Assembly: GCF_932526225.1 (NCBI RefSeq)
Contig: NC_064039.1
Location: 6,257,459 to 6,321,458 of the forward strand
Length of the DNA stretch: 64,000 bases
Reading direction: 5' to 3'
From: Nematostella vectensis
Lineage: Eukaryota
Under the pieces are notes generated by a model that had not been told where the DNA came from, ran no database searches, and worked only from the letters and a program-made list of their open reading frames with translations. Numbering within the stretch: position 1 is the first letter of the stretch; every line of letters starts with the position of its first letter. The translations under genes were made by a program, and so were the position numbers. Shown here piece after piece: positions 47,765 through 62,383 of this stretch.

Positions 47765-47781
47765 GTGGATGTAATAACAAA

Positions 47782-48606
47782 ATGGATATGCAAAGTGCTG
47801 GAAGTCTTACAAATCTCACCGTGGAGGATCAAGCCGCCACCTTAGCGAGGTGGGGAGCCGCAGACTTTGACGCCGTTATGGAGCGCGCGGCGTGGGAGGG
47901 GTGCGTCGAGACCGTGAGGTTGTGTAAGAGTTGGGGTGCGACGGATTTCGAAAAGCCGATGGTCAGGGCCGCAATGAACGGCCACACCGAGATCGTTAAG
48001 ATGTGTTGTGAGTCGGGCGCCTGTGACTTCGTGTATCCAGCGTCCATGGCCGCGAAAGGCGGGCACGTAGAGGTTTTGAAGGTGATGGGCGAGTATTGTG
48101 CCGACGGAGGAGAGGCCATGACCGAGGCCATGGGTGCTGCGGCGGCGGAAGGTCAGGTGGGGGTTGTTGAGTTGTTGATAGATCTAGGTGTCGATGTCGA
48201 TGTCGGTTGGGCCACCGCTGAGGCGGCGTACAATGGGCACGTTGAGGTTCTGAAGCTGCTGAGAGAAAACTTCTGGGAGTTTGACCCGGACTATGCTATA
48301 ACACCAGCCATCGAATCTCGCAACCTCGAGATTGTGAGGTTGTGCTTGGAGTGGGGCGCGACCGATCTCATTGTACATATGAACTACGCACGGTTTTGGC
48401 ATCTGCATAAGATTTTCGCGGTGCTACGTGCGGCGTGGGGGTGGAGTCTTGTGCATGAGGAGCTCCCGGAGAAGCTACACAAGGTGAGATTCCGTAGAAA
48501 GCTGGAGGACGAACTAATGCCAGTAGCTTGGCATCCGGACAGGTTTTGGGATTGGTGCATGGATGAGCAAGAGAAGGAAATGTTGGGAGAATGCTTCGCC
48601 AGGTAG
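47782..48606 (+). CDS. ankyrin-repeat protein (at least 5 ANK repeats: …AAMNGHTEIVKMCCESGA…, AAKGGHVEVLKVM, AAAEGQVGVVELLIDLGVDV, AAYNGHVEVLKLL, …NLEIVRLCLEWGA)
   Basis: repeated ~33-aa ANK consensus (A.-G----V--LL--GA). Confidence 0.8.
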   Translation: MDMQSAGSLTNLTVEDQAATLARWGAADFDAVMERAAWEGCVETVRLCKSWGATDFEKPMVRAAMNGHTEIVKMCCESGACDFVYPASMAAKGGHVEVLKVMGEYCADGGEAMTEAMGAAAAEGQVGVVELLIDLGVDVDVGWATAEAAYNGHVEVLKLLRENFWEFDPDYAITPAIESRNLEIVRLCLEWGATDLIVHMNYARFWHLHKIFAVLRAAWGWSLVHEELPEKLHKVRFRRKLEDELMPVAWHPDRFWDWCMDEQEKEMLGECFAR

Positions 48607-48650
48607 ACGCCGACCGGCTAGAAGGCGGGTATCGCGTGTTGGATTGAAAA

Positions 48651-48663
48651 GTGATTTAAGGAC
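48651..48663 (+). promoter_or_regulatory. promoter motif GTGATTTAAGGAC abutting the first ATG of the Cys-rich gene. The 60 bp around it duplicates the pPolB promoter/5' end.
   Basis: AAAGTGATTTAAGGACATGACCGGTTTGATAGAAATGGAGAAC versus AAAGTGGTTTAAAGACATGACTGGTTTGATAGAAATGGAGAAC (pPolB). Confidence 0.6.
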
Positions 48664-49011
48664 ATGACCGGTTTGATAGAAATGGAGAACCAAACGGTGA
48701 AAGACTCGAAAGTATCCCCCGTAAAGCGAACAACGGATTATAAGTGTCTTCATGGCAGAGTGAAATATTATTGCAAAGATTGTCACGGATCGCAAATCTG
48801 CCCTCACAACCGGAGAAAAACGCGGTGCAGAGAATGTAACGGCGGTAGCATTTGTGAGCACAGACGAGCAAGATATGTCTGTAAAGACTGCAAGGGGAAA
48901 GGGATGTGTGAACACAGCAAACAGAGACCCTTTTGTAAGTTATGCGGAGGGTCTCAAATATGCGAACACGATAGACAAAAGCACCATTGCAGAACGTGTA
49001 ACGGAAATTAA
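48664..49011 (+). CDS. basic Cys-rich protein with four tandem zinc-knuckle-like modules C-x2-C-x5/6-C-x-H-x6-C. Putative nucleic-acid-binding/core protein. N-terminal MTGLIEMEN shared with pPolB.
   Basis: CKDCHGSQICPHNRRKTRC / CRECNGGSICEHRRARYVC / CKDCKGKGMCEHSKQRPFC / CKLCGGSQICEHDRQKHHC; K/R/H-rich. Confidence 0.65.
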   Translation: MTGLIEMENQTVKDSKVSPVKRTTDYKCLHGRVKYYCKDCHGSQICPHNRRKTRCRECNGGSICEHRRARYVCKDCKGKGMCEHSKQRPFCKLCGGSQICEHDRQKHHCRTCNGN

Positions 49012-49026
49012 CATTGACCCACTCAG

Positions 49027-49053
49027 TTTTGTAACGCGTCTCACGTTACAAAA
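49027..49053 (+). terminator. 10-bp stem hairpin (TTTTGTAACG-cgtctca-CGTTACAAAA) 16 nt after the Cys-rich gene stop
   Basis: seen in sequence. Confidence 0.35.
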
Positions 49054-49208
49054 CACATACATTCCTAATCACCCTAACAACTAGCGATTCTGAAAATAGG
49101 TTTTGTATTTACATTGAGAGTTCGCGGTCGCCAGGGTGGTCTGGTATGCACGTGAACAGGTATTGTCTTCTTGCGGTACGTCACATCCGTCCACATGCAC
49201 CCCGCATG

Positions 49209-50735
49209 TTACCGGAATAGATACCAAGCTAAACCAGCCGTAAAGGCTGTGATCGTGACAAGGTTATTTTCGTGCTGCGTGTTCGTGGGTTTAATCACGT
49301 CCGGCTTTGGGTTAGTTTTCGCCTCCGGTTCCGGTTTGTGAGCCGTGACTGACTCGGTATGAGGTAACACAATCTTTGAATGACCCATATTATGTTTAGG
49401 GATCGTTTTTATCTCGTTATTTATCGGATTCAGCCCCAGTTTCATATCAGTGGTGGCTTTTTGTAACTTGTTATTATAGCCAGCGATCGAAGTGTTGTTA
49501 TTTATCACAAGATACGATGGACTTAACCAACAGCCGAGGGCGAAAGCTAGGTCTAGTTTTTGTCTCGCCTGTTGTAAAGCAAACTGATACCGTTGTATAC
49601 TTTTCGATATACTGTTTTCCACCACCGCGCTTTCGAAGAGTTTCGTGAAGACCTGTTTCGTTTCCTGAGCTGAACCGCTATCGCCGACGATTGACGACCG
49701 GGTCTGAACTTGCGCGCCTAGAATACAGTAGACAAAGGCTTCGATGCTCTGGTTTATCCTAGACAACCCAGCTTTGGTTAACCCCATTGATTTTTCCGGA
49801 AAGAACCACTCATACTGAAACCCAGTTCTAAGGTCTTTCAGGTACTCGATCTCAAAGTGATTCATGTGTTCGTGGTCGCTTTTGGCAGCGTCCCATTCGT
49901 CGTGTAATTGATCAATGGTGCCATAAGGCTTATACTTGTCGTTAGAAGATGACAAGCCGTGATAATCATAATTATAAACGTTCCCTAACCCGTGATTTAT
50001 CGGTCTGAGGAACCGGAAATCGTCACCAGTTCGGAATTCTGTTCTTAGTTTTTGGTAAGCCGCTTCGCTGTAAAAGTTTTTATTCCAACTAAAGAGCCTA
50101 TCTTTTGGAAGAGGGCATTGTAGCTCGTTTAATATTCGTCTGATAGTGAAAATGATGTGAAATCTGTAGAATGACCCCACTTGAGAGTCGTCAATCATGT
50201 CACGCGTCACACCACATCCAGCAGTCGCGCAAAACATAGCAAAATTTAAGGCTTGACTCCAATAACTGAGGTTTGGGGCGTCGAGCCACCTACTAGCCTC
50301 CTTTGCTGTTCTGAATACTAGCAAGCTGTCGGTGAATATGTCCCTAAAAACAAAGTGTGTCTTCACCTTTGGTGTTATAAAAACATTAAAAGAGACGTAA
50401 TTATTTCTCGTAGGGTTTTCGTCCCACGGCAATATCTTGTACTCTGCACGCGCGTCTAGTCTGTATTGTTTTGGGAACCCAAACAGTTGCTGGATCGTTT
50501 CCTTGTATGCTTGTGTGTCGTCGGCGACTAGAAAATCCTGGATATTCTCGGGTTTCCAGCTATTACCAGGGAAGTGATATAACGTTTTGACTAGATTCCC
50601 ATTCTTGTCGAATGGATCGTATTCGTCCCCATTGAAAACGAATTGCACATTGCCGTGCCCGTCGGCAGAGAACCTGAAGCGTGAGTAGTAGGGGTACCTT
50701 TTCACAAATTCTGTAAACTTCATCTTATATGACAT
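49209..50735 (-). CDS. hypothetical 508-aa protein with C-terminal transmembrane anchor (LVTITAFTAGLAWYLFR); no recognisable family
   Basis: long intact ORF with GATTTAAAAACATC promoter-like motif upstream; second in-frame ATG (M5) has the canonical spacing. Confidence 0.6.
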   Translation of the reverse strand: MSYKMKFTEFVKRYPYYSRFRFSADGHGNVQFVFNGDEYDPFDKNGNLVKTLYHFPGNSWKPENIQDFLVADDTQAYKETIQQLFGFPKQYRLDARAEYKILPWDENPTRNNYVSFNVFITPKVKTHFVFRDIFTDSLLVFRTAKEASRWLDAPNLSYWSQALNFAMFCATAGCGVTRDMIDDSQVGSFYRFHIIFTIRRILNELQCPLPKDRLFSWNKNFYSEAAYQKLRTEFRTGDDFRFLRPINHGLGNVYNYDYHGLSSSNDKYKPYGTIDQLHDEWDAAKSDHEHMNHFEIEYLKDLRTGFQYEWFFPEKSMGLTKAGLSRINQSIEAFVYCILGAQVQTRSSIVGDSGSAQETKQVFTKLFESAVVENSISKSIQRYQFALQQARQKLDLAFALGCWLSPSYLVINNNTSIAGYNNKLQKATTDMKLGLNPINNEIKTIPKHNMGHSKIVLPHTESVTAHKPEPEAKTNPKPDVIKPTNTQHENNLVTITAFTAGLAWYLFR

Positions 50736-50813
50736 ATAAGATGTTTTTAAATCAGTCCTTTACGCATCTCAATTCATAGATCCATCCGACGGGAGTTCTC
50801 TCGTACAGAAATT

Positions 50814-51419
50814 TCACCGAGCGGGTCGACTCGCCAGGTCTTTCAAAATCTCTTCTCTTACTGTTTCCCTCAGCTTGGTAATGTTTACGTTTTTTTCGTC
50901 CTCTCTTACCGACTTTTGACGGATCTGGAGCTTTAGAGCCTCAAACTTGTCCACCTCGTTCAAGATTAAAGAGAACTCTTCGTCTGATATTTTGTTGTCT
51001 TTTAAAGCTTTAGAGACCAGGTCGCGTATGCTATTTACTTTTGCCTTTGCCATCGCCGCTGTTTGGTCGTGCTTGGAGACTTTTTGCGACAGCCGTTTAG
51101 AAACCGCCGCACAGCCTACAGACGTAAGACCGAAAACACCGGCCAAAGCACCCAACGGAACTCCGACGACGATACCAAAACCTGACAGAGAAGTCCCCAA
51201 ACCACTAGACCCAAGAATGACGGATAAGAGTCCTAAGACCACACTTAACTTTGAAAACACGCTCTGCCCTCGTTTATACTTTTTCCTCACGTTCTCGTAA
51301 TGTTTAACTTCTTGCTCCAAACTTCCCAAAACATCGTGGGTCTTTTGGAGTCTGAAGTTATCACCCGAGGGGCTGACCCCTCGGGGTACGTTCGGGTAGA
51401 TTGAGTTGTACTCTTCCAT
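50814..51419 (-). CDS. hypothetical membrane protein (201 aa, two glycine-zipper TM helices, C-terminal coiled coil)
   Basis: ORF plus upstream CACTTAAAGAAT motif. Confidence 0.55.
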   Translation of the reverse strand: MEEYNSIYPNVPRGVSPSGDNFRLQKTHDVLGSLEQEVKHYENVRKKYKRGQSVFSKLSVVLGLLSVILGSSGLGTSLSGFGIVVGVPLGALAGVFGLTSVGCAAVSKRLSQKVSKHDQTAAMAKAKVNSIRDLVSKALKDNKISDEEFSLILNEVDKFEALKLQIRQKSVREDEKNVNITKLRETVREEILKDLASRPAR

Positions 51420-51446
51420 AGCTTTATTATGGGGAGAATTTATTCT

Positions 51447-52070
51447 TTAAGTGATTTCTAAAATTAGACGTATCGGGTAGAGACCGCGCTCTATTGTGTT
51501 TCCGTCACCACCCTTTATACTAAGACGGAGACTACTCACGTAACCGACTGATGTGGTGCTAACCCGTACCGGATCGCTTGGATTGAGGTATATCTTTCCT
51601 TCATCAAGCTCTACACTTGCTAGGATTTGTGAGGGCGCCCCTTGTTGGAGGGAGTCAGACGCGTTCACAAGATCGCAGTGGATAAAAATAGCCTCGTGAC
51701 CTATCATCTTTATCTCGTGGCGAGTGTTTGCTTCCAGCTCCCTGGTCTTGAGTCCTAACAGGCAGGCGAGCGGCTCATTCAACGCGACGTTCCGGTGAAC
51801 TTCGAGTGACGAGTCTCTAATAGAGACTGACTTTTCACCAAGACGCATACCCCCATCTATTTGACGTTTTAGCGTCTCGATCGTATACTGCCCCGCGGGG
51901 ATCCTAAGGATAATGTTCTCACCGTCGGAGACCGTTCCCTCGCTTGAGAGACTGTTACAACGATTATGAAACGCACATCCTCGCAGCGCGATAAACCGCG
52001 GCTTTTCAATAGGTTGTTCTAAATAGACAGTAAAGTCACCAACGTTTCCTTCAATGTAGAGTAATACCAT
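51447..52070 (-). CDS. hypothetical beta-rich 207-aa protein; candidate single-jelly-roll minor capsid (penton) protein
   Basis: size, position in the virion-gene block and alternating hydrophobic pattern; upstream GATTTAAAAGGAGAC motif. No motif-level recognition. Confidence 0.45.
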   Translation of the reverse strand: MVLLYIEGNVGDFTVYLEQPIEKPRFIALRGCAFHNRCNSLSSEGTVSDGENIILRIPAGQYTIETLKRQIDGGMRLGEKSVSIRDSSLEVHRNVALNEPLACLLGLKTRELEANTRHEIKMIGHEAIFIHCDLVNASDSLQQGAPSQILASVELDEGKIYLNPSDPVRVSTTSVGYVSSLRLSIKGGDGNTIERGLYPIRLILEIT

Positions 52071-52073
52071 TTG

Positions 52074-53096
52074 TTATGATTTCCGTCTCCTTTTAAATCG
52101 TTCTACGGAATACAGGACGACAGCGACGATGAGAAGCCATGCGTTTTTAGCTAAAAAGCCAACAACTTCACCTGCCGTTCTAAATATGAAACTAGCTATA
52201 GCACCAACCATTCCTGGGAGTATTTCTCCTAATTTTTTGCCTATTGTTTTCAGACCATTTCCAACACCTTTTGCAACACTAGTCAGCCCAGCTTTCAGAT
52301 TAGAGACAATAACACCGATAACAACGCCCACAGCGGTAACGACAGCAGCGACTGTAAATCCGTATTTCTTAAAAATCGCTTTGACACGATCTTTCAACGA
52401 CATTCTCTCTTCAAGATTTTCTCTCTCCAATTGATTCTCTTCCAAAGTCTCATCTATGACAGAATTTCTTTCGCTGAGCTCTTCATTTTTACGATCTATA
52501 GCTCTTAGTCTTTCTTGGTTAGTTGTTTCACTTCGTTCCTCATTATTTTTTCTCATTTGCTCGGTGTTTCTCTCTTCTTCTTCTCTGAGTGTATTACCTG
52601 TAGCGTCTAGTTCATCGAGTTGAATCTGAATTTGCTTGTACTTTCCGGATCTGATTTTGTCGTCAACACTCTTCCGCACCGTTCTATCCTCATTATACAA
52701 CCTTTCTGGTCTAGTCCAACCACCTTTTCTCGCAGAATAGAAGGAAATGAATTGTTTTCCTCTCTCATCCGTTGAAATCTGAACTAGATTTTCATCAAGA
52801 TCTGGATATTTCGATAACAAAAGGTCTACCCTAAGTGTGTCCGTTGAAGGAGAACCTCCCATATTCTGTAACTCCATGTACTCGGGGACAGCCCTCCCGG
52901 GGTTTCGTGTTTTCCATAAGTCAGTCAACCTCCTACTCACATAGCTTGCACCTCTACCAAATCTGTTTGAAATCCTTTCATTCCATGATTCTCTTCCCTC
53001 ACCATCGTTTGGAATAAGAGAGTCATAATCTTCGTCTACAGTAGTATTCAAATCTTCTCTACCTTCTTCTGTTGTGGGATCAAAATCTATATCCAT
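52074..53096 (-). CDS. hypothetical 340-aa protein: acidic N-terminus, E/R-rich coiled coil, C-terminal multi-TM region
   Basis: ORF plus upstream GACTTAAAGATTT motif. Confidence 0.55.
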   Translation of the reverse strand: MDIDFDPTTEEGREDLNTTVDEDYDSLIPNDGEGRESWNERISNRFGRGASYVSRRLTDLWKTRNPGRAVPEYMELQNMGGSPSTDTLRVDLLLSKYPDLDENLVQISTDERGKQFISFYSARKGGWTRPERLYNEDRTVRKSVDDKIRSGKYKQIQIQLDELDATGNTLREEEERNTEQMRKNNEERSETTNQERLRAIDRKNEELSERNSVIDETLEENQLERENLEERMSLKDRVKAIFKKYGFTVAAVVTAVGVVIGVIVSNLKAGLTSVAKGVGNGLKTIGKKLGEILPGMVGAIASFIFRTAGEVVGFLAKNAWLLIVAVVLYSVERFKRRRKS

Positions 53097-53140
53097 TTCT
53101 TATTTTGTTTGAAAATAAGAAATCTTTAAGTCGTGCCAGC

Positions 53141-53557
53141 TCATATCCACCTACTCGCTACATAGCCAAGGGCTAACATTCCACCTCCAACGTACGCCAT
53201 CTCTCCCATCTTTTGGTTGCTACTTGGTCTGTAGTAATCTGAGAGCTCAGGCTCTTTCAAATCAAAATCTGGATGTGTTTGAGCGTATAGTTTGAAAGCC
53301 TCATCCGTCTCTTTATCGTTCTCATCCGCACGAACTTTATCGTTGTATTGTTCAGTCAACCAATCCTGGTATTCCTGTCTTTTTTTCTGCCAATCACCCA
53401 TTGCTTGTTGATACTTTTCAAGCGCTTTATCGTGTCTTATTTTTTCTTTATCAACATGAGTAGCGTCAGAAGACAAGTATCTCGCTAGGTAACTCCCTCC
53501 GACAAACGCCGTCGCATTAATAAAAGCCCCACCAATCATAAATGCTATACTCGCCAT
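53141..53557 (-). CDS. hypothetical membrane protein (138 aa; N- and C-terminal TM segments)
   Basis: ORF plus upstream CGACTTAAAGATC motif 19 nt from ATG. Confidence 0.5.
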   Translation of the reverse strand: MASIAFMIGGAFINATAFVGGSYLARYLSSDATHVDKEKIRHDKALEKYQQAMGDWQKKRQEYQDWLTEQYNDKVRADENDKETDEAFKLYAQTHPDFDLKEPELSDYYRPSSNQKMGEMAYVGGGMLALGYVASRWI

Positions 53558-53589
53558 TTATTAATCAATCTATAAGATCTTTAAGTCGC

Positions 53590-53814
53590 CTACAGCGGTT
53601 TTGGCAAAATCTTTTGTGTTTCCAGATAATCTTTCAGATACATACTACCGGACAGGACAGCAACCCATTTAGCGTAGTTTGTAACACTTGACGAAGGGTC
53701 GCTGATGAATGACTCTTTCATAGCCTTTTTAGCAACATAACCCACGCCGGCGGCTAATCCGATGATGACTGCTGAGTCGGTGATCGTTTTCACAAGTTTG
53801 TTTTCAGTTGACAT
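53590..53814 (-). CDS. hypothetical small membrane protein (74 aa)
   Basis: ORF plus upstream GATTTAAAGATTATC motif, preceded by the 30-bp palindromic element. Confidence 0.45.
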   Translation of the reverse strand: MSTENKLVKTITDSAVIIGLAAGVGYVAKKAMKESFISDPSSSVTNYAKWVAVLSGSMYLKDYLETQKILPKPL

Positions 53815-53849
53815 GATTTTATTTATTACAGATTCAGATAATCTTTAAA

Positions 53850-54311
53850 TCACAACATTCCTATTTTTGGCGTCGCGTTCGGGAGGCTAGCCCCTCGAGC
53901 TCCCCCTAGGTGGGAGGTGGGTCTCCCAAGAGTTTCGGCCTCGTTGACGTTAATCTTAGACGGCTCGCCCTCTTTCTTTTTGTAAAAACGCATATACATA
54001 TCCAATGCGGTGAGCCCTATTCCAACTAGAGCCAGTACAGTTGTAAACGATAGCTCTGGAATCCAAGCGTCCGAGAGGCTATCCCCTCGAGCTCCCTCTT
54101 GGTGGGGTGTCTCTGCTCGTGCAGCGTCTTCTGAACTCGCCTCCGCCTCGCGTTTCATCTCCCTAGCAAGTGCTTCTCTACACCTCCTATTATATTCGGC
54201 AACTCTCTTACCAGAAGCGACTTTTATAGGATCTTTCTCCTTAGCGGCACTCTTCTTCCTGGGGGGAGGGTCCTTTGTGATTTGCTCAACCTCTTGATTT
54301 TCGTCAGACAT
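53850..54311 (-). CDS. hypothetical 153-aa protein, basic N-terminus plus one TM
   Basis: ORF plus upstream GATTTAAAGATTC motif. Confidence 0.5.
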   Translation of the reverse strand: MSDENQEVEQITKDPPPRKKSAAKEKDPIKVASGKRVAEYNRRCREALAREMKREAEASSEDAARAETPHQEGARGDSLSDAWIPELSFTTVLALVGIGLTALDMYMRFYKKKEGEPSKINVNEAETLGRPTSHLGGARGASLPNATPKIGML

Positions 54312-54453
54312 GATTCTTTACTCACTGAATAAAGAATCTTTAAATCACATCATGCTCAAGAGCTTGCTCAGTTGTGCTCAAGAGCTTGCTCAGGTGTGCT
54401 CAAGAGCTTGCTTAGGTGTGCTCAGGTGTGCTCAAGAGTTTGCTTAGGTGTGC

Positions 54454-54981
54454 TCAGGTGTGCTCAAGAGTTTGCTCAGTTGTGCTTGAAACTTCTTGAA
54501 GTTTGTTGGAAGTCTCCTGTGAAGGTGTTAGTTTAACATGCTTAGCGACCCGAAAGATGGCACTAGCAAGTGCTACCATCCTTCCTCCCTTCAATACCAA
54601 GAGACCTGCAAAGTTTGACAATTCGCGTTTAACCAACTCGTCGTTCTGTAAGTCTTTGCTAAGCGCTTCGGTGTCATCTACAGGAACCACGTAGGAAATG
54701 ACTTGAGACACCACTTGAAGTGCTGATTCTACTAATCCATCAGTAACTTGTTTGCCTAAGACAGTCTGGTAGCGAACAAAGTACTTTTCGACGTCTTTCG
54801 CCGGGAGCTTCTTGATGTCCCCTAAACTCATGTCCACACCAAGAAATTCCTTCGTAGTCCCAAGAGATGCGAGAATAGCCAGCGATTCTCGTTTGACTTC
54901 AACATCGTCTTCGAGAGGCTCACCCTTCGAGCTCCCCTTAGACTTAGGCTCCTCTTCCATATAATCCTCAATGCTTGCCAT
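54454..54981 (-). CDS. hypothetical 175-aa acidic protein (likely start MASIEDYMEEE…; the six-frame ORF extends to 55047)
   Basis: AAGTGGTTTAAAAACATC motif lies 25 nt upstream of the internal ATG at 54981, and the 30-bp palindrome abuts it. Confidence 0.5.
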   Translation of the reverse strand: MASIEDYMEEEPKSKGSSKGEPLEDDVEVKRESLAILASLGTTKEFLGVDMSLGDIKKLPAKDVEKYFVRYQTVLGKQVTDGLVESALQVVSQVISYVVPVDDTEALSKDLQNDELVKRELSNFAGLLVLKGGRMVALASAIFRVAKHVKLTPSQETSNKLQEVSSTTEQTLEHT

Positions 54982-55043: not shown

Positions 55044-55670
55044 TCACCGCGTGGCAGGAATCTCCAAATAACGTTGGAATGGATGTCGTAGGCAGAAACA
55101 GAGTCTGGAATACTTTTCAGTTTTCAGCAGTTCTACAAACTTTTTACGAGTCTCAACGTCTAAGTCACCCCCATAATCTTCAAACAGTGTTTTGGTACCG
55201 ATTTGAGATGGATTATGGAATGTAACCACACAGGCGACGTTATCACGGAAGGGCTTTGCTATGGATGTTAATTGTTGCGTCAATACCCACACTGATAATC
55301 CTTCGTGTCTCCCTGAGAACGCTAAATTGATAAACTTGTTCGAGCGTTGCTTTAGATCTTTCGATACAGCACAGTCATCCAAAACGAGTAACGTATTTGT
55401 ACCAGAAAATAGCACCGCACAATCTGTTAGTAACTCGTTAATCTCATCGGTGTTACTAGCATCCGGCGATAATACCAAGAAACGTTTATCTCCGTGAGCA
55501 AATCTACGATAGGACTTGTTTTTCGCATAAGTCGGACAAATCAACACAATGTATTCAAACACATGCCGGAACGGCCCTCGGAGCTGTTCCGTGAGGTACT
55601 TTGTCTTCCCACAATTAGTAGGTCCTGTGATAATACAATGAAAAGGAACTTTTTCCCGTAATTCTTCCAT
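55044..55670 (-). CDS. FtsK/HerA-superfamily (A32-like) genome-packaging ATPase; Walker A GPTNCGKT, Walker B LLVLDD. Likely start MEELREK (the ORF call 55044..55691 starts on a non-ATG codon).
   Basis: P-loop and hhhhDD motifs, ~210 aa, location next to capsid gene as in Polintons/virophages. Confidence 0.85.
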   Translation of the reverse strand: MEELREKVPFHCIITGPTNCGKTKYLTEQLRGPFRHVFEYIVLICPTYAKNKSYRRFAHGDKRFLVLSPDASNTDEINELLTDCAVLFSGTNTLLVLDDCAVSKDLKQRSNKFINLAFSGRHEGLSVWVLTQQLTSIAKPFRDNVACVVTFHNPSQIGTKTLFEDYGGDLDVETRKKFVELLKTEKYSRLCFCLRHPFQRYLEIPATR

Positions 55671-55698
55671 TCTTTTTGTATTATCACACAAGTCCTTT

Positions 55699-56937
55699 TT
55701 AATACATGATTGCTCTCAAATTCGAGTTCATAACCTCCATCAACGCGTCGGCTACTACAAACATGTAGCAGGTGATGTTTCCCGTTCCTCCAACTTTTCG
55801 TTTCATCTCGAGTTTTACTCCGTCTCGCGTGTTGTTCAAGACCAGACCTCCTCCGTGAATGCTGTTATCTGGGTGTGCCCTCAAGTCGACCCACAGAGCA
55901 AACTTGTTATTAGCGTAAAAATCCTTTTGCTTGACACCCTCTCTACCGAAACGTTTCTTTACCGACTCCCAGAGGTCCGGCGGTGTCATCCCCTTGGAGT
56001 AGAGACGGTTTGGCATGCCATCCACATTAATGTTGATCGATGTGATGCTTGGATTGACAAACTTTTCGGAATCCCTTGCTCCTCCGGTGTAGCTCTCTGT
56101 GAACAGGCACAATATCCCTGTCATTGACCTCCTCGGCAGATTAATGTGCTCGTTTATGACACCATCATTAGGTTTGGAGATGGTGAACGTTTTGTGGAGA
56201 ATGACGTTCTCGTAAAAGAATCCTCTACCAACCTGATAAGCCGACAACGCCTCACGAGCTAAGTATTCACTTGAGATGCAAGCATATTCCAACTCGAGGT
56301 TTGTGATTGTGTACGTTGGAGTCTTGACCGTGTCAGCATAAACAACGACGTCGGAAACTGGGGCTAGAGTAATTTCAAAGATTAGCGGATGAGGTAACGC
56401 CTTTGGATAAAAGACCCCATGCTCGCCGAGAATAGGATGGTCGAGTGGAATGCAGTACTTGGTGTTGTGAACTGCTGCAAGAGCTACTTCCTTAGCATCT
56501 GATGTCGCTTTGTCACCTGCATTTGTCCTGAGCTTCCTCATGTTCTCAGAGGAGATACCTTGTTTTATTCTATCCTCACGATCTTCAGCTTGTAAGTATA
56601 AGTCGTGATAGGTTTGGAAGAGATCGTATCTTTGAGTATCCTGTAGTGTTTCTCCACCGAAAAGAATCTTGAGCCTTGACACTAGGTTCCGGCCAACGTT
56701 GTTGACGAGAGTATTATTCGCGTGTCCTGTGACGTTTAAGTCAAATAGTAAGGATACACTACCTGGAACAATCACTACATTTTCAGCAAGTTTTGGAATA
56801 TTTATATAGAGGGTTTCTCCAGGACTTGCCGATGAGGGATTGAATGTAATCCGATTCAGCGACGATTCCGCTTTCAGGCCGAAGGGTTCCCGTGGGATCC
56901 TGTTTGGGTTAATTTTTTCTGATATCGCTTGTGCCAT
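55699..56937 (-). CDS. putative double-jelly-roll major capsid protein (412 aa)
   Basis: beta-rich 45-kDa protein immediately upstream of the packaging ATPase, the conserved MCP position in Polintons; no direct motif proof. Confidence 0.55.
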   Translation of the reverse strand: MAQAISEKINPNRIPREPFGLKAESSLNRITFNPSSASPGETLYINIPKLAENVVIVPGSVSLLFDLNVTGHANNTLVNNVGRNLVSRLKILFGGETLQDTQRYDLFQTYHDLYLQAEDREDRIKQGISSENMRKLRTNAGDKATSDAKEVALAAVHNTKYCIPLDHPILGEHGVFYPKALPHPLIFEITLAPVSDVVVYADTVKTPTYTITNLELEYACISSEYLAREALSAYQVGRGFFYENVILHKTFTISKPNDGVINEHINLPRRSMTGILCLFTESYTGGARDSEKFVNPSITSININVDGMPNRLYSKGMTPPDLWESVKKRFGREGVKQKDFYANNKFALWVDLRAHPDNSIHGGGLVLNNTRDGVKLEMKRKVGGTGNITCYMFVVADALMEVMNSNLRAIMY

Positions 56938-56970
56938 CTTTTATTTTAAGAAAAGAGAGATAATCTTTAA
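56938..56970. promoter_or_regulatory. 33-bp bidirectional promoter between MCP (-) and integrase (+): TTTTAAGAAAAGAGAGATAATCTTTAAA carries the TTTAAAGA-type motif in both orientations
   Basis: palindromic arrangement TTTAAGA…TCTTTAAA. Confidence 0.5.
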
Positions 56971-57963
56971 ATGAGTAACGAAAGCAGGTTATCAAAAATA
57001 TACTATTCCACCGATGGATACTGGAAAGGGTATTCAGCTATTTATAAGTTAGCTAGTGTCGCTAAAGTCAGTGAAGCCGAGGCTAAGAGGTGGCTTGAAA
57101 AACAGGCGTTGTGGCAGATCTATCTCCCAGCTCCAAAGTATGTCCCCAGACCGCATTGGACTGTGAATAAACCTAATCAGATTCACCAAGCCGATCTGTT
57201 GTTTATGCCCCACGATAACGTAGGCAGAAAAACCTACCGTTACGCGTTGGTCGTGATTGATATTGCCTCGAGATATAAAGATGCAGAAGCACTGACTACC
57301 AAGGATTCGAGTGGAATTGCTAAAGGGTTTGAAAAGATATACTCCAGAAAACTTAAATGGCCTCATACGGTGATTGTCGATCCGGGGACAGAATTTAGGG
57401 GAGAGGTAACGAAGATTATGAAAAAGAAGGGGGTTACCATCCAGCGAAGCGAAGCTGGGAACCATCGCGCACAGGCTTTTGTCGAACGCGCCAATAGAAC
57501 ACTGGCGGAGAGGTTGTTTTCTTATCAGTATGCTCAAGAAATGATTAGCGATGATCGGTCCAGAGTTTGGGTGAAACGATTGCCAGATGTTTTGAAGACT
57601 CTGAATAGTCAACCCATAAGAATTACTGGCAAAGAGCCTGTAAAATCTATTGGTTTGAAAGAGGTTGATATTGACCCTCCAACGTATAAGCGGCCTGTTG
57701 GACTTGACGAAGTTAGACTACCACCAGGGGTTAGAGTTAGATATCTATTAGCTCCTGGAGAAGAGGAAGGAGGTGAACGCAGACGAGCCACAGACCCCAT
57801 TTGGAGTTTGAAAGTGTTTGATCTATCACGCAGTGTTGTTTCGGTTGGGCAGCCTGTGTTGTACTACCTCTCCGAAGGCGCTCCAAGGAGGTCGTTCGTT
57901 AGGGAAGAACTTCAAGTCGTCCCTGAAGATACTGAGCCACCACCTAATAGCGTTCTGAAATGA
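56971..57963 (+). CDS. retroviral-type (rve) DDE integrase with C-terminal extension
   Basis: catalytic triad context HQADLLF (D) … VIVDPGTEF (D) … NHRAQAFVERANRTL (E); ~35-aa D-E spacing. Confidence 0.9.
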   Translation: MSNESRLSKIYYSTDGYWKGYSAIYKLASVAKVSEAEAKRWLEKQALWQIYLPAPKYVPRPHWTVNKPNQIHQADLLFMPHDNVGRKTYRYALVVIDIASRYKDAEALTTKDSSGIAKGFEKIYSRKLKWPHTVIVDPGTEFRGEVTKIMKKKGVTIQRSEAGNHRAQAFVERANRTLAERLFSYQYAQEMISDDRSRVWVKRLPDVLKTLNSQPIRITGKEPVKSIGLKEVDIDPPTYKRPVGLDEVRLPPGVRVRYLLAPGEEEGGERRRATDPIWSLKVFDLSRSVVSVGQPVLYYLSEGAPRRSFVREELQVVPEDTEPPPNSVLK

Positions 57964-60900
57964 CCGTGAGCGAAGGTGTGAATACCATCATCACAGATGA
58001 CCCGTTTATCATCCTCATGAGATAGAGCGACCTTGTTCACCGTTTCAGTGTAAACATCATGCTTATGACTTCTGATGACATTCATAAGTCTCATCTGAGG
58101 TTTCTTACCAAATAAGCAATCCTTGTAGTCATCGAAACCGATGCTCTTCTTGACGACTGCTCTCTTGACGCCCTTGCATTTCTTTTCTTCTTTACCTTCA
58201 TCCATCTTGTACGAGTAAAGTTTGGCCCTCAGTCCTACAAATTCTGTGATTTGCTGGCCCCCAGCCTCATCTTTAAACATTCCGATGACTTTCTTGTTCA
58301 CACCCACCTCAATACCAGATGGGTGACCCTTCGGAAAGTTGCTGGTGTCGAACATGGACCTCACATCCCCGCTGATGTCCTCGTAAAAGTCTTTCGTCTC
58401 GATCTCATACATCAGGCTGTCAGTATCAGTGAATAAGAGCTTTGCATCCTCACCGTACTTAGGCTTGACGAAGTTGTAGTGGAAATCGTACATGAGCGTC
58501 TTACTCAGGTCCAGAATGGACATACCCAAGTAGACAGGCTTGTTGAAGATCAGCTTTGTCTTCTTCATGTGGATGGCGGCTAGATTCTCGCAAAAGATGG
58601 TGCGATGTTGATAGTTCGGCTTTGATATGAGCTTCTTGGCCTGCTTCTCGTCCGTCACCAACCGAATGTCCACCCTGTTCCTAATGTTCTCCATAGTCTT
58701 ACCAAAGACGGAGTTGTTCATTAACTTGAAAAAATCTTTCTCAAAATCGTTTGTCGCCTTGGCTCTCAGATCGGTGTTCAAGTCAATGTAGGGCTCCAGC
58801 CAAGCAGACTCCTCAAAAGTGACACCCCTGTGAATCTTGGTGACTTTTAGCCCAAAACTCACATAAAGTCTCAGAGTCTCATGGTGGATAACGTACTTTG
58901 TCTTGTCGTTAAGGTTGGGGACCAACTTGTCCACATTGCCTAGCCCGATAGATTCCGGGGCTAGTGGGTAATCGTTGTGTAAGTCATGTAGGTGGTGAGG
59001 GTACTCCAAGTCAACCTCCAGAATGCATGGGCGGTCTCTCCAACCTGACAGCTCTTGGTCACCCATCCACCTGAAACCGTGAGTCGGTAAAGGGTTGCTC
59101 ATCGCCCAGCCATACAAATTGTTAGCATCAAGGTAGGTGATATATTTTGTGGGTAGGTCAGGGTCATACTCCTTCATGTAAGGGTTATTTGCCTCCCCAT
59201 GTCTGTTGCTTATCATGGAGACACCCCCACGGATGCCCTTCTCAATCATGAGCAACATGTCATAGTCCGTTAGAAGCTCTAGCCTCACCTTGGTGGTCTT
59301 CAACGCTGCATCCCAAGCCAACCCTGGCGCTGTGTAGTACCAAGCGGGGTCCAGACCGTAATTCTTGAGACAAACGTCCCTAAAGTTCTCGAAAACGTCA
59401 GCTAAAAGCAACACATCCGACTCTAGGTACAGATTGTGGTAATCCCTCATGGTCCCCATCCCAAAGGCCTCCCACACTCTCCGCGCGTGCAGGTGATCCT
59501 CCTCCGATATGTCGGTGTCGTTGAGTTTGGAGTGGAACGCCTCTCTCTGTGGGAGCTGTGTTGCGTCGAGCTTGCTAAAGCCGTCGAACCAGTCGTAAGG
59601 GAAAACACCCTTCCTCAACAACAGCTGAAGCTCCTCCCCCTCATAGTACTCCGCCAGGTTTTTGAAGCACTCCCTTGACATATTACCCACTAGACTGTCG
59701 AGACTGGCCGACATAAACCTGAAACTGTCGATAAATCTGATATCACGTTTAACATCAATCTTGTTGCCCTCCTTGTTCGTGAAACTGTCGACTACAATCT
59801 GTTTTGTGAAAGAAATATACTTTTCCTCGTTATTAGGTATACAGTTTATTTTACCTTCCGATGTACCAAGGTTCTTGATAAATAGATGGCTGTCGTACCC
59901 AGACAGATTGTGAAAGATAACAGGAAAGAACTTTGGAATTTTGTGATCTAAGTTGCATGCGTTGTGAGCAGCACCTCTGTACTTCCCTGTAAGGTGGCAA
60001 TGGTCCAAAACCTTGTCTTCCCCTAATTCACCCTCACAGATGTGGCAGTGAGTGGCGTCGTTATAGGCGATTTTGTCCTTCGGAGTCATTTTCACCTTCT
60101 TAGGGAACCTGAACTTATCATAAATTTTCTTAATGTCTGACTCCAAAGACTCTACGAAAAGCTGTGGGATATCTTCGTCTGGAGATTCAGCTGTGTATCG
60201 TACAAGCTCGGATGGGGATATATCTCCGTCGAAACACTTGATGAGATAGCAGAAACCAGACGGTTTGTGTTTCTGGTATTGCTTAGTGAAGCTTTTACTC
60301 TCATCTGGGGAGCATGTGTCTATATTCTCTGTGAAGCTCTCAAAGTCGGCGTAGACAACAAAGGGGACACGCATTTTTCTGTTGTAGTTTTTGAATTTAA
60401 TGTGGGGTAGATTTCCATCCTTATCTATCTTAGGCATCTCTATTCCAACCGCTTCATGATTGCCGCAGCATTCAGAATGTTTTTCTAATGATTGTTTGCA
60501 CCGAAACGAGTTCAGACATCTACAGCATAAAAAACGAGTATGATGAAACTCATCAATTTGAGTAGATACTAATCTCATCATATTCTTTATCCAGCAGTAA
60601 TGATTCGTCTCATCATCCGAGATGAGAAGTAAGTTGATTGCATTATCTGGATCCTTCTCACTGATTCTCAATGGATATATTTTGGTTTCGTATCCAAACA
60701 CATTAACCGTATACTGGTTCTGTTTCTCGAACTTGTCAATCTGTTTTAGTGAGACGGGGAACTCTATCCCTGACCAGTCGAATTTCTCAGAGCTCTCTAT
60801 CATTTGTTTACTGAACCTTTGAGGATCTTTCTCCCTAGGATACACAGCAGAGGTTACTGCCCACTTGAAACATTCGTGATCATTCTCGTTCTTAACATTG

Positions 60901-61838
60901 ATGATCGCCTTCTTAGACGCTAGTTTCAGCGGCAGCGGAATATAGGAAGACCCAGAAAGCGGTTCAAAGGGATCTATGTTGATGTCAAAGTATTCCACTT
61001 GGTCAAACTGCCATCCGGAGCCTTGCTTCTGGAACAGCTCAACTAATCCGAGTAAATAATTTGTCATCGTATCGAACAAATCAGAGAGATCAGTCGACTC
61101 TGTCACAATCTCGGGCTTCTCTGTATGAAAATATCCCAGTTCTTCTTCGATCTGAGCTGTAGCCGGATCCTCTTTTATAAACCCGCAAGTAAAGATAAAC
61201 TTCACTTTGATAGGCTTTTTTTGTCGACTGATGAGCTCTAAGACTTTCGGTTTGATTCTGGCGATGAATGTCTTGGGGTCGTAACCTCTCTGCCCGGCTA
61301 TTCCGTGGGTTTTAAGATACCCCTTCAACGCCGTCTGTTGTTCCTTGGGTGTGAAGCGATCTTCCACCTCCTCGTGTAGACGCTTAATCCTCTCCTTCAG
61401 ACGTTCGACCCGTTTATCTGCAGCCTCTTTGACGGTCTTTTTGACGGGCTCGGGGACATAAGATAGTATCCAATCCGCAAACTTGTCTAACTCGCTCTTG
61501 ATCAAGTTGGCCGCCCTGTTTGCAAAATGCTTGAGTGATTGGACGCGGGAACTCCGTGGGGGTTGGGAGGGTTTTAGAATAGGGACATTAATCTCAGGTA
61601 TCGGGCCGTCGAGAATACTCTCCGACGTGTTGGACGGGGTAATGCGGGGTGGTCGTGGCAGCCCTTTGACAAGTTTGGGTAAAGGAACCCGTCGGGGTGG
61701 TGGTGGTGGTGACGTGCTGGTCAGCGCCCCGACGAGCTCGTCTCTCCGCATCCAGTAATATCTTGGGATACCCCGCTCCTTGGCGAGGGCTTTCAGATCT
61801 TTCACCTTCAGGTTCTCCATTTCTATCAAACCAGTCAT
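57912..61838 (-). CDS. protein-primed family B DNA polymerase (1308 aa) with N-terminal SAP motif, proline-rich linker, TPR1-like N-terminal region, exonuclease and polymerase domains
   Basis: Pol motifs YLDANNLYGWAMS (motif A), KLMNNSVFGKTMEN (motif B), LLFTDTDSLMYEI (motif C); SAP LKVKDLKALAKERGIPRYYWMRRDELVGAL. Confidence 0.95.
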   Translation of the reverse strand: MTGLIEMENLKVKDLKALAKERGIPRYYWMRRDELVGALTSTSPPPPPRRVPLPKLVKGLPRPPRITPSNTSESILDGPIPEINVPILKPSQPPRSSRVQSLKHFANRAANLIKSELDKFADWILSYVPEPVKKTVKEAADKRVERLKERIKRLHEEVEDRFTPKEQQTALKGYLKTHGIAGQRGYDPKTFIARIKPKVLELISRQKKPIKVKFIFTCGFIKEDPATAQIEEELGYFHTEKPEIVTESTDLSDLFDTMTNYLLGLVELFQKQGSGWQFDQVEYFDINIDPFEPLSGSSYIPLPLKLASKKAIINVKNENDHECFKWAVTSAVYPREKDPQRFSKQMIESSEKFDWSGIEFPVSLKQIDKFEKQNQYTVNVFGYETKIYPLRISEKDPDNAINLLLISDDETNHYCWIKNMMRLVSTQIDEFHHTRFLCCRCLNSFRCKQSLEKHSECCGNHEAVGIEMPKIDKDGNLPHIKFKNYNRKMRVPFVVYADFESFTENIDTCSPDESKSFTKQYQKHKPSGFCYLIKCFDGDISPSELVRYTAESPDEDIPQLFVESLESDIKKIYDKFRFPKKVKMTPKDKIAYNDATHCHICEGELGEDKVLDHCHLTGKYRGAAHNACNLDHKIPKFFPVIFHNLSGYDSHLFIKNLGTSEGKINCIPNNEEKYISFTKQIVVDSFTNKEGNKIDVKRDIRFIDSFRFMSASLDSLVGNMSRECFKNLAEYYEGEELQLLLRKGVFPYDWFDGFSKLDATQLPQREAFHSKLNDTDISEEDHLHARRVWEAFGMGTMRDYHNLYLESDVLLLADVFENFRDVCLKNYGLDPAWYYTAPGLAWDAALKTTKVRLELLTDYDMLLMIEKGIRGGVSMISNRHGEANNPYMKEYDPDLPTKYITYLDANNLYGWAMSNPLPTHGFRWMGDQELSGWRDRPCILEVDLEYPHHLHDLHNDYPLAPESIGLGNVDKLVPNLNDKTKYVIHHETLRLYVSFGLKVTKIHRGVTFEESAWLEPYIDLNTDLRAKATNDFEKDFFKLMNNSVFGKTMENIRNRVDIRLVTDEKQAKKLISKPNYQHRTIFCENLAAIHMKKTKLIFNKPVYLGMSILDLSKTLMYDFHYNFVKPKYGEDAKLLFTDTDSLMYEIETKDFYEDISGDVRSMFDTSNFPKGHPSGIEVGVNKKVIGMFKDEAGGQQITEFVGLRAKLYSYKMDEGKEEKKCKGVKRAVVKKSIGFDDYKDCLFGKKPQMRLMNVIRSHKHDVYTETVNKVALSHEDDKRVICDDGIHTFAHGHFRTLLGGGSVSSGTT

Positions 61839-62383
61839 GTCTTTAAACCACTTTTCAAAAGCTTTTTTAGATGTGAAGCTTAGAGGCTAGCCTCCCGAGC
61901 TCCCCCTAGGTGCGACACGTGACAAAGTGATTGACAGGTGGGCTTGACTATCACGTGACAAAGTGATTGACAGGTTCTTGACAAAATGATTGACAGGTTC
62001 TTGACAAAATGATTGACAGGTTTTTTACAAAGTGATTGACAGGTGGGCGTGGCTATCACATGACAAAGTGATTGACAGGTTTTTGACAAAGTGATTGACA
62101 GGTGGGCTTGGCCGTCACGTGACAAAGTGATTGACAGGTTTTTTACAAAGTGATTGACAGGTGGGCTTGGCTATCACGTGACAAAGTGATTGACAGGTGG
62201 GCTTGGCTATCACGTGACAAAATGATTGACAGGTGGGCTTGGTCGTGCGAGAGATCTCTGGCAAACTCGCGCATGCGCAGGTCGCGAGGCTTGGCGGAGG
62301 TGTGCGGAGACTTTTGCGCCACTTTTGGAATGAAATTTGGGGAGATCAAAAAGTTGCGCCAGCTGCGCCAAAACCCTACTACT
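61839..62383. repeat. right TIR (545 bp) with ~12 TGATTGACAG-containing subrepeats and 4-5 CACGTG boxes
   Basis: reverse complement of left TIR. Confidence 0.9.

What the first reader, a model, noticed from the sequence alone, without database searches (positions are those of the whole stretch)
48600..61900. Cys-rich zinc-knuckle gene shares its promoter and first 9 codons with pPolB (5' duplication / promoter capture)
The ~60 bp at 48640-48700 (AAAGTGATTTAAGGACATGACCGGTTTGATAGAAATGGAGAACC) are almost identical to the pPolB 5' region (reverse complement of 61800-61860). Both proteins therefore begin MTGLIEMEN before diverging (…QTVKDSK versus …LKVKDLK). The Cys-rich protein then consists of four C-x2-C-x5/6-C-x-H-x6-C modules in a very basic context, consistent with a DNA-condensing or core/packaging protein co-expressed with the polymerase.
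Basis: seen in the sequence. Interest (0 to 1): 0.55.

Follow-up and report, generated by a model that had tools for sequence, protein, structure and literature searches.

The report
Maverick terminal repeat encodes shared gene heads
The stretch shared by the small cysteine-rich gene and the DNA polymerase gene of this sea-anemone virus-like transposon is a leftover of the element's terminal inverted repeat, which in close relatives still supplies the same promoter, start codon and DNA-binding N-terminus to both end genes; the same effect is known from linear mitochondrial plasmids, but I found no report of it for Mavericks.

Summary
In detail: 48644-48712 (+) matches 61790-61858 (-) at 87% over 69 nt, with none expected by chance. 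It is not a private two-gene duplication. The window holds a complete 16.6-kb Maverick/Polinton of Nematostella vectensis (45749-62383).

In three related anthozoan elements the Cys-rich gene is the first gene at one end and pPolB the first at the other. There the terminal inverted repeat (TIR) runs from the terminus through a promoter-like box and into the first 41-64 codons of both genes. Identity is 95-100% within an element and 68-82% between elements. Both proteins therefore share an N-terminal module: a Rho_N/SAP-type helix hairpin plus an ILDEPIPEINVP motif.

In the window this end was remodelled. A giant-virus-like TFIIB gene is fused in frame behind a 33-codon module remnant and now sits at the TIR edge. 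An ankyrin gene carries another copy of the box. The Cys-rich gene lies 2.9 kb inside and keeps only the box, the start codon and about 10 module codons.

The conserved start is the second ATG (MEN...); "MTGLIE" is probably 5' leader. The core TTTAAAGA box is generic (12 of 16 genes).

The Cys-rich protein has five C-x-H-x6-C-x2-C units and resembles uncharacterised giant-virus proteins. A core or packaging role is unsupported.

The parts
45744..45748 (.). Left copy of the target-site duplication (CCCTC)
   Evidence: the flank ends ...TTTCCCTC before AGTAGTAGG; the same CCCTC follows the right end
45749..46261 (+). Left TIR, outer part. Terminus AGTAGTAGG, then 23/36-nt tandem units CCTGTCAATCACTTTGTCA(CGTGATAGCCAAGCCCA)
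   Evidence: I1-I4: 92-97% complementary to 61894-62383
46262..46639 (+). 378-bp segment that splits the left TIR. It carries an 86-aa ORF (46301-46561, C-terminal hydrophobic stretch) and is bounded by two copies of CCTAGGGGGAGCYYGGGGGCTA
   Evidence: (I4 and I5 both use 61894-61915)
46640..46754 (+). Left TIR, inner part: the head of the TFIIB-like gene. Identical to the pPolB head from -60 to -18 (43/43), decaying after the box
   Evidence: I5 (115 nt, 83%); segment table
46734..47660 (+). TFIIB-like gene (308 aa; identical to XP_048581547.1). Codons 1-33 (46734-46832: MEERTVE..SPPPYNILGGPVPEINAPTL) are a module remnant fused in frame to a complete TFIIB-like protein whose canonical start is M34 (46833, MPEFALFDRALTEYE)
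47745..47781 (+). Ankyrin-gene head: the same 17-nt box (17/17) with only weakly similar flanks; GTG where the others have the first ATG
   Evidence: (D8)
47782..48606 (+). Ankyrin-repeat gene (274 aa)
48644..48712 (+). An in-frame but non-conserved ATG lies at 48664
   Evidence: (I16)
48682..49011 (+). Cys-rich ORF from the conserved start (109 aa; 115 aa from 48664). Five C-x-H-x6-C-x2-C units lie at 48745-48999. About 55 module codons are missing relative to P0001
57912..61820 (-). [quoted passage not shown] Residues 1-82 (61575-61820) form the full N-terminal module: helix hairpin, Pro-rich linker and SILDGPIPEINVPIL
   Evidence: (Rho_N, residues 7-38)
61790..61858 (-). pPolB head that matches the Cys-rich head
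   Evidence: I16
61801..62383 (-). Right TIR. Outer part 61894-62383; the inner part continues without interruption to about 61801, which is inside the pPolB ORF
   Evidence: I1-I5
62384..62388 (.). Right copy of the target-site duplication (CCCTC)

Best explanation
The shared stretch is a relic of a gene head encoded in the terminal inverted repeat (TIR). In this anthozoan Maverick/Polinton lineage the two outermost genes both read inward: pPolB at one end and a helix-hairpin + Cys-repeat gene at the other. The TIR runs from the AGTAG terminus through about 145-160 bp of leader, which contains a promoter-like box ((A)AAAGTGG-TTTAAAGA) about 28-31 nt before the ATG, and on into the first 41-64 codons of both genes. 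Both genes therefore receive the same promoter, the same start codon (ATGGAG, MEN...) and the same N-terminal module: a Rho_N/SAP-type helix hairpin, a disordered linker and an ILDEPIPEINVP motif. Whatever process keeps the TIRs alike also keeps the two heads alike. I infer terminal recombination or gene conversion, as proposed for protein-primed linear plasmids. In the Nematostella element of the window the left end was later rebuilt. A 378-bp segment split the TIR. A giant-virus-type TFIIB-like gene was fused in frame behind a shortened module and now occupies the TIR edge. An ankyrin gene acquired a copy of the box. The Cys-rich gene, now 2.9 kb from the terminus and outside the homogenised zone, lost about 55 codons of the module, keeping the box, spacer, start codon and about 10 codons. 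Shown here: the homology, the TIR extents, the grouping by element and the fusion architecture. Inferred: that the box is a promoter, the homogenisation mechanism, and the order of events.
For: (1) The element is defined as 45749-62383, with AGTAGTAGG termini, roughly 500-bp TIRs and a CCCTC duplication. It carries pPolB motifs in canonical order, an rve integrase, an A32-type ATPase and a capsid-like protein. The host is identified by an exact match of the TFIIB-like ORF to N. vectensis XP_048581547.1 and by 89% and 80% pPolB matches. (2) The closest homologues of the Cys-rich ORF (P0001-P0006, P0027; 109-177 aa) have an N-terminal Rho_N domain plus NILDEPIPEINVP before the repeats. P0001 versus the window pPolB N-terminus gives 54% identity over 82 columns, E 4e-24. 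(3) In the L005/L006 element the two ends are 100% identical for 268 nt starting exactly at the terminus: 144 nt upstream plus 124 nt (41 codons) of both genes. Similarity then ends abruptly. In L004 the figures are 99/100 upstream and 183/192 over the first 64 codons, then random-level. In L001-L003 the Cys-rich ATG lies about 140-165 bp from an AGTAG terminus. (4) Modules group by element, not by gene: 98-100% within an element and 68-82% between elements over the first 105 nt. (5) In the window, the TFIIB head matches pPolB 43/43 at -60..-18 and continues the TIR (I5, 79). Its first 33 codons retain SPPP and NILGGPVPEINAPTL (E 4e-05 versus pPolB), while family relatives align only from about residue 33-64 and start M[TS]DFxLF.. 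= M34. (6) The published analogue: in linear mitochondrial plasmids the DNA-polymerase and RNA-polymerase genes at opposite ends are homogenised so that their first 32-72 residues are identical (PMC3673629).
Against: I could not retrieve other Nematostella copies. The order of events (TIR-embedded Cys-rich head ancestral, window arrangement derived) therefore rests on three related elements plus partial views of three more, not on a rooted phylogeny. Across the spacer and start the Cys-rich head is closer to pPolB (16/17 and 27/33) than the TFIIB head is (12/17 and 23/38), even though the TFIIB head now lies at the TIR edge. This could mean later conversion between the Cys-rich and pPolB heads rather than simple decay. 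There are no transcript data, so the promoter role of the box and the choice of ATG are inferred from conservation only. The small internal matches used to argue for several deletions (GTATCCC, CGTAAAGCGAAC) are short enough to be chance.
Confidence: 0.85

Rival explanations
1. Recent promoter capture, the reader's view: the Cys-rich gene lately copied about 60 bp (promoter plus 9 codons) from the pPolB gene within this element, and nothing more was ever shared.
For: The 69-nt match is 87% identical and stops abruptly on both sides. The Cys-rich head is the window copy most like pPolB across the spacer and start.
Against: Relatives of the Cys-rich gene carry the full 65-residue module homologous to pPolB, inside the TIR. 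The window ORF still aligns with them on both sides of the gap (MENQTVKD.. and ..VKRTTDYKC versus ..LDKTTTNKC). Two more genes carry the same head.
Confidence: 0.08
2. Only a generic promoter or initiator consensus is shared: every gene of the element uses the same short box, and the apparent extension into coding sequence is chance or a translation-context constraint.
For: [TC]TTAAA[GA][AG] lies 14-40 nt before the ATG of 12 of 16 genes, against 0.2 expected. It is also present in L004 and L006.
Against: The generic box is 8 nt, whereas the match here is 69 nt. The 22-mer spanning spacer, ATG and codons occurs exactly twice, with 0 expected. In relatives the identity continues for 124-192 nt of coding sequence, including synonymous sites.
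Confidence: 0.02
3. Ongoing ectopic gene conversion among dispersed heads: the four heads in the window are kept similar by continuing conversion because a shared N-terminal tag or promoter is selected, not because of TIR history.
For: The Cys-rich head is better conserved against pPolB than the TFIIB head in the spacer and start. The module remnant is retained in a 33-member cluster of 307-308-aa TFIIB-like proteins.
Against: The window heads are only 65-87% alike outside the 17-nt core, far below the 95-100% seen for heads that lie inside TIRs. The Cys-rich gene lost the helix hairpin and the PIPEINVP motif, so no common tag is maintained.
Confidence: 0.05

Closest known systems
Subtelomeric gene homogenisation in linear mitochondrial plasmids with TIRs and protein-primed DNA polymerases (Brassica napus, Pichia kluyveri, Podospora anserina plasmids; Smith & Keeling 2013, PMC3673629)
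   Same: The TIRs extend into the 5' ends of the two different, inward-reading terminal genes, one of which is the protein-primed DNA polymerase. The first 32-72 residues of the two proteins are therefore identical. Here the figure is 41-64 codons.
   Different: The replicon is a nuclear, integrating, capsid-encoding Maverick of an animal. The partner gene is a helix-hairpin + Cys-repeat protein, not an RNA polymerase. In the window the head has also been copied internally to further genes, and one copy has decayed.
Maverick/Polinton elements of animals (Kapitonov & Jurka 2006, from my own knowledge; Barreat & Katzourakis 2021, PMC8097293; Polinton-3_NV of Nematostella is mentioned in PMC4028283)
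   Same: pPolB, rve integrase, A32-type ATPase and a capsid gene. (AGT)2-type end motif, TIRs within the published 46-1447 bp range, and a short target-site duplication.
   Different: The papers I read describe TIRs as flanking repeats and do not mention TIRs that overlap coding sequence or shared N-termini. The TFIIB-like, ankyrin and Cys-repeat accessory genes are not among the vertebrate core genes listed there.
Giant-virus proteins with the same Cys-repeat array (BFVD: Pithovirus LCPAC304 'DnaJ central domain protein' A0A481Z8I3; Pithovirus LCPAC404 'Endonuclease' A0A481ZHE8; E5ERF0; D2TFP8)
   Same: Foldseek E 3.5e-11 to 2e-08, 41-52% identity over 86-92 columns with the repeat array of P0001. 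The 18-residue unit has the same CxxCxG signature.
   Different: Those proteins are 290-400 aa with other domains. None is functionally characterised, and the names are automatic.
Rho_N / SAP / HeH-LEM helix-extension-helix nucleic-acid-binding motifs
   Same: Pfam Rho_N hits: 9.2e-10 for P0001 and 4.6e-05 for the window pPolB. The AF2 helix hairpin superposes on the Rho N-terminal domain and the FAN1 SAP domain at about 1 Å over 32 residues.
   Different: Here it heads a polymerase and a zinc-repeat protein. No binding target is known.

Membership tests
Maverick/Polinton | [quoted passage not shown] | tested here: inconclusive
   Exo I, II, III and motifs A (DANNLYG), B (KLMNNSVFG) and C (TDTDS) are present in canonical order. 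Pfam, PHROGs and PDB sequence searches give no polymerase hit. Protein priming itself cannot be tested here.
Maverick/Polinton | Retrovirus-like (rve) integrase | tested here: met
   PF00665 at 9.9e-08, 32.6 bits, which equals the gathering score
Maverick/Polinton | Capsid module: A32-type packaging ATPase and a double jelly-roll capsid protein | tested here: inconclusive
   Pox_A32 at 3.7e-11, met. Capsid_N only 0.0036, below the cut-off. No adenain-type protease was detected.
Maverick/Polinton | TIRs with AG/AGT end motif and a 5-6-bp target-site duplication | tested here: met
   TIRs 45749-46261 / 61894-62383 at 92-97%; AGTAGTAGG termini; CCCTC on both sides. The end motif agrees with PMC8097293.
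TIR-embedded, homogenised heads of terminal genes (as in linear plasmids) | The TIR covers the 5' coding ends of two different terminal genes, giving identical N-termini | tested here: met
   Met in the relatives: L005/L006, 268 nt identical including 41 codons; L004, 183/192 over 64 codons. In the window it is met only partly: the TIR reaches the TFIIB-like and pPolB start regions, and the Cys-rich gene is now internal.
TIR-embedded, homogenised heads of terminal genes (as in linear plasmids) | Concerted evolution: heads more alike within an element than between elements | tested here: met
   98-100% within and 68-82% between
Retroviral-type CCHC zinc knuckle (C-x2-C-x4-H-x4-C) | CCHC spacing and a Pfam zf-CCHC match | tested here: not met
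   The spacing is C-x-H-x6-C-x2-C (or C-x2-C-x5-C-x-H) with an 18-residue period. No Pfam hit at E <= 0.1.
DnaJ central cysteine-rich domain (CxxCxGxG) | Four CxxCxGxG motifs forming two zinc centres; Pfam PF00684 | tested here: inconclusive
   CxxCxG is present in the units, and the best BFVD match is named 'DnaJ central domain protein'. There is no Pfam hit and each unit also has a C-x-H pair, which DnaJ lacks.
Adenovirus protein VII / Mu or protamine-like core proteins | Sequence or fold similarity; an Arg-rich unstructured protein in the late/structural gene block | tested here: not met
   No Pfam, PHROG, PDB or BFVD match to such proteins. The protein is predicted to be folded (pLDDT about 96 over the repeats). 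Its gene sits at the terminus with the polymerase-type head, not among the capsid genes.
Rho_N / SAP helix-extension-helix domain (the N-terminal module) | A Pfam match and a two-helix hairpin | tested here: met
   Met for pPolB and the relatives of the Cys-rich gene. Not met for the window's Cys-rich ORF itself, which retains only about 10 residues of it.

The most novel reading that the evidence does not exclude
The TIR-borne head works as a portable expression-and-tagging cassette: promoter box, start codon and an N-terminal helix hairpin with the PIPEINVP motif. Any gene that lands at the element's edge is automatically co-expressed with, and tagged like, the polymerase. This lineage used the cassette to domesticate cargo, including a giant-virus-type TFIIB that may itself read the element-wide TTTAAAGA-type promoters. 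The element would then bring its own initiation factor for its own promoters.
Probability: 0.15. Interest if true: 0.7.

Novelty: new member of a known kind. Interest (0 to 1): 0.5.

Why it matters
It explains an odd local similarity by a general structural rule: in this Maverick lineage the terminal repeats are not just flanks but encode the promoters and N-terminal domains of both end genes. This has four consequences.

- It gives sequence evidence that Maverick ends behave like the ends of protein-primed linear plasmids, whose ends are homogenised across coding sequence. That fits the proposed but undemonstrated linear, protein-primed replication of these elements.
- It shows how new cargo genes can be plugged in behind a ready-made head.
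- It flags about 30 N. vectensis RefSeq 'transcription initiation factor IIB-like' genes as transposon cargo and not host genes.
- It corrects the likely start codons of pPolB and the Cys-rich ORF.

Tried and rejected
- Pfam and PHROGs on the Cys-rich ORF gave nothing.
- A PDB sequence profile search with the family alignment gave only weak zinc-ribbon ribosomal proteins L37e and S27e (E 0.05-0.8), which I treat as noise from CxxC spacing.
- The afdb50 library was unavailable.
- I first recalled the EsV-1-7 repeat of brown-algal viruses as a candidate. I dropped it because its remembered spacing (C-x4-C-x16-C-x2-H) does not fit and no tool supported it.
- LxCxE 'Oncoid'-type motifs (PMC8502044) are absent from the sequence.
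- Exact look-ups of the window's Cys-rich ORF, of two Nematostella pPolB relatives and of the TFIIB-like protein in the contig index all failed, so other N. vectensis copies could not be compared.
- Pfam (also at E <= 10 on the C-terminal 762 aa), PHROGs and phmmer against the PDB failed to recognise the polymerase domain. The assignment rests on motifs and context.
- I considered the TTTAAAGA box as a TATA box. Its 27-36-nt distance to the ATG would leave almost no 5' UTR, so its exact role (TATA-like or initiator-like) stays open.
Full report
**1. The observation**

The region 48644-48712 (+) and the reverse complement of 61790-61858 align without gaps at 87% over 69 nt (I16). The 22-mer GGTTTGATAGAAATGGAGAACC is present exactly twice in the 64-kb window, and the 25-nt upstream pattern three times. 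None is expected in dinucleotide-preserving shuffles. Read from the first ATG, both ORFs start MTGLIEMEN. It is incomplete, however: the core AAAAGTGRTTTAARGAC occurs four times in the window, each time just upstream of a gene.

| Box position | Strand | Gene |
|---|---|---|
| 46700 | + | TFIIB-like ORF, 46734-47660 |
| 47748 | + | ankyrin ORF, 47782-48606 |
| 48647 | + | Cys-rich ORF |
| 61855 | - | polymerase ORF |

**2. The setting**

The window contains a complete Maverick/Polinton at 45749-62383 (16,635 bp). Both termini read AGTAGTAGG. The TIRs are 45749-46261 and 61894-62383, are 92-97% alike, and are built largely of 23/36-nt tandem units. The element is flanked by CCCTC on both sides. 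Its recognisable genes are:

- an rve integrase and an A32-type ATPase, plus a weak capsid match;
- a 1302-aa ORF with all family-B exonuclease and polymerase motifs in canonical order. No profile library recognises the polymerase domain.

The host is Nematostella vectensis. The TFIIB-like ORF is identical to XP_048581547.1/XP_048584879.1, and the polymerase is 89% and 80% identical to two N. vectensis proteins.

**3. What the Cys-rich gene looks like elsewhere**

Its closest homologues (64-69% identity; P0001-P0006 and others) are 156-177 aa. Before the Cys repeats they carry an N-terminal Rho_N domain followed by NILDEPIPEINVP. That N-terminus is homologous to the N-terminus of the window's polymerase: MENLKVKDLKALAKERGIPRYY...SILDGPIPEINVPIL, 54% identity over 82 columns, E 4e-24. 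Pfam places Rho_N at polymerase residues 7-38.

A profile of this module finds 601 proteins. The sampled ones are either polymerase N-terminal fragments or module + Cys-repeat proteins. The window's Cys-rich ORF keeps only MENQTVKDSK at one side and ..VKRTTDYKC at the other. About 55 residues are missing.

**4. Why the two genes share a head**

In related, complete elements the Cys-rich gene is the first gene at one terminus and the polymerase the first at the other, and both read inward.

- **L005/L006** (one contig): the two ends are 100% identical for 268 nt starting exactly at the terminus. This covers 144 nt of leader plus 124 nt (41 codons) of both genes, after which similarity stops.
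- **L004**: 99/100 upstream and 183/192 over the first 64 codons, then random-level similarity.
- **L001-L003**: the Cys-rich ATG lies about 140-165 bp from an AGTAG terminus.

Over the first 105 coding nucleotides, the heads of the two genes are 98-100% identical within an element but only 68-82% identical between elements. The heads therefore evolve in concert, as parts of the TIR.

This is the situation described for linear mitochondrial plasmids. There, DNA-polymerase and RNA-polymerase genes at opposite ends are homogenised so that their first 32-72 residues are identical, and gene conversion between the ends is the proposed cause (PMC3673629). I found no mention of this for Mavericks in the papers I read. 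That search was limited.

**5. What happened in the window**

The left TIR is split by a 378-bp segment (46262-46639) that carries an 86-aa ORF. Beyond it the TIR resumes at 46640-46754. This stretch matches the polymerase head perfectly from -60 to -18 (43/43) and then decays (I5).

This head now drives the TFIIB-like gene. Its first 33 codons (MEERTVE..SPPPYNILGGPVPEINAPTL) are a shortened module (E 4e-05 against the polymerase). The conserved TFIIB-like family aligns only from about residue 33-64, and its canonical N-terminus M[TS]DFxLF[ED]xALxEYE corresponds to M34 of the window protein. The gene is therefore a complete TFIIB-like gene fused in frame behind a head remnant. The fusion is multi-copy: its 90% cluster has 33 members of 307-308 aa. 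The 15 listed are 14 N. vectensis RefSeq proteins and one JGI metagenome protein.

The ankyrin gene has the 17-nt box (17/17) with weak flanking similarity. The Cys-rich head begins only at -39 but is the best match to the polymerase across the spacer (16/17) and the first 33 nt (27/33). I read it as the former TIR edge, now stranded 2.9 kb inside the element and decaying. Later conversion with the polymerase head cannot be excluded.

**6. Which ATG is used**

The first ATG (GACATGA) is in frame in the polymerase and the Cys-rich gene. Elsewhere it is not conserved:

- out of frame in the TFIIB head and GTG in the ankyrin head;
- a 3-codon uORF in L001 and L004, out of frame in L002, and absent in L003 and L005/L006;
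- ATT in one Nematostella paralogue.

RefSeq starts both the TFIIB-like protein and P0153 at the second ATG. The conserved start is AAAATGGAG, which is a good Kozak context (from my own knowledge). 'MTGLIE' is most likely leader.

**7. Generic versus specific promoter signal**

An 8-nt box [TC]TTAAA[GA][AG] lies 14-40 nt upstream of the ATG, on the coding strand, for 12 of 16 genes. Random placement gives 0.2 on average and at most 2. The same box is visible before most genes of L004 and L006. The box is thus an element-wide, family-wide core signal. The four heads share a longer version of it plus, in three cases, coding sequence. Whether the box acts as a TATA-like or an initiator-like element cannot be decided without transcript ends.

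**8. The Cys-rich protein**

It has five C-x-H-x6-C-x2-C units at an exact 18-residue period and pI 9.4.

AlphaFold2 on the family alignment, with P0001 as the target, gave a confident helix hairpin (pLDDT above 92), a disordered linker, and a confident repeat array (pLDDT about 96). Each 18-residue unit forms a short hairpin plus one helical turn. From the secondary-structure register I infer one zinc site per unit, formed by C-x-H and the following C-x2-C. Coordinates were not inspected.

The PDB holds no counterpart for the array. Predicted giant-virus proteins do match it, at E 3.5e-11 to 2e-08 and 41-52% identity. One is named 'DnaJ central domain protein' and one 'Endonuclease'.

My best guess is a nucleic-acid-binding accessory protein that is co-expressed with the polymerase and originally shared its DNA-binding head. 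It would more likely act on the element's DNA in replication or transcription than as a virion core protein. Confidence in that functional guess is low, about 0.3. Nothing links it to adenovirus VII/Mu or to protamines.

**9. Verdict**

The finding is real and is explained by a known kind of process in a new setting. It is a tidy and moderately surprising structural feature of anthozoan Mavericks, with an interesting secondary story: head reuse for captured cargo, including a TFIIB whose closest relative outside cnidarians (52% identity) lies on a giant-virus-like contig.

Noticed in passing
window 46243-46270(+), 46637-46675(+), 61915-61875(-), 55055-55016(-), 54946-54907(-), 54106-54067(-), 53914-53875(-): A palindrome-rich 30-40-nt motif, CCTAGGGGGAGCTCGAGGGGCTAGCCTC, occurs seven times, always in the sense of the local genes. 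It lies upstream of five gene starts but also inside two coding regions, in two different reading frames. It therefore looks like a DNA-level element (a binding site or a small insertion). Its function is unknown.
   Followed up: partly
window 45749-62383 (all gene starts); also L004 and L006: An element-wide box [TC]TTAAA[GA][AG] lies 14-40 nt before the ATG of 12 of 16 genes (0.2 expected) and is conserved in related elements. Each gene seems to have its own compact promoter, with almost no room for a 5' UTR if the box is TATA-like.
   Followed up: partly
window 46734-47660 (+): The TFIIB-like ORF is identical to N. vectensis RefSeq proteins named 'transcription initiation factor IIB-like' and belongs to a 33-member 90% cluster. 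These annotated 'host' genes are Maverick cargo. The closest relative outside cnidarians (P0273, 52% identity) sits on a giant-virus-like contig (L007: Rpb10, KilA-N, P9_TM and NIF neighbours).
   Followed up: partly
L001 8069-9838: A related element copy is inserted into a tandem 5S rDNA array: four intact 5S genes at a 441-bp period, with the next one interrupted a few bases after its start by the AGTAGTAGG terminus.
   Followed up: partly
window 61575-61640 (-), 46785-46832 (+); P0001, P0034-P0080: A conserved short motif, [IV][LM]D[EQ]P[IV]PEI[ND][IV]P[IV]L, lies in the disordered linker after the helix hairpin. It is kept in pPolB, in relatives of the Cys-rich gene and in the TFIIB-like fusion, and is tandemly amplified ((EIMDEP..)n) in some polymerase fragments. 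It looks like a docking motif for an unknown partner.
   Followed up: no
window 46262-46639 (+): A 378-bp segment splits the left TIR. It carries an 86-aa ORF (46301-46561) with a C-terminal hydrophobic stretch and its own TCTAAAGAC box, and is bounded by two copies of a roughly 20-nt repeat.
   Followed up: no
window about 59950-60080 (-), pPolB residues about 587-630: The polymerase ORF contains an Endonuclease VII-like (HNH-type) insert between the N-terminal region and the exonuclease II motif (Pfam 7.8e-06; PHROG 1.9e-07).
   Followed up: no
window 40000-41035: A 32-bp-period satellite (TGCTGGCCTAGCAATGTTAR..., about 30 copies) lies upstream of the element. Further 160-bp and 547-bp repeats flank it at 62498-62978 and 44779-45700.
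   Followed up: no
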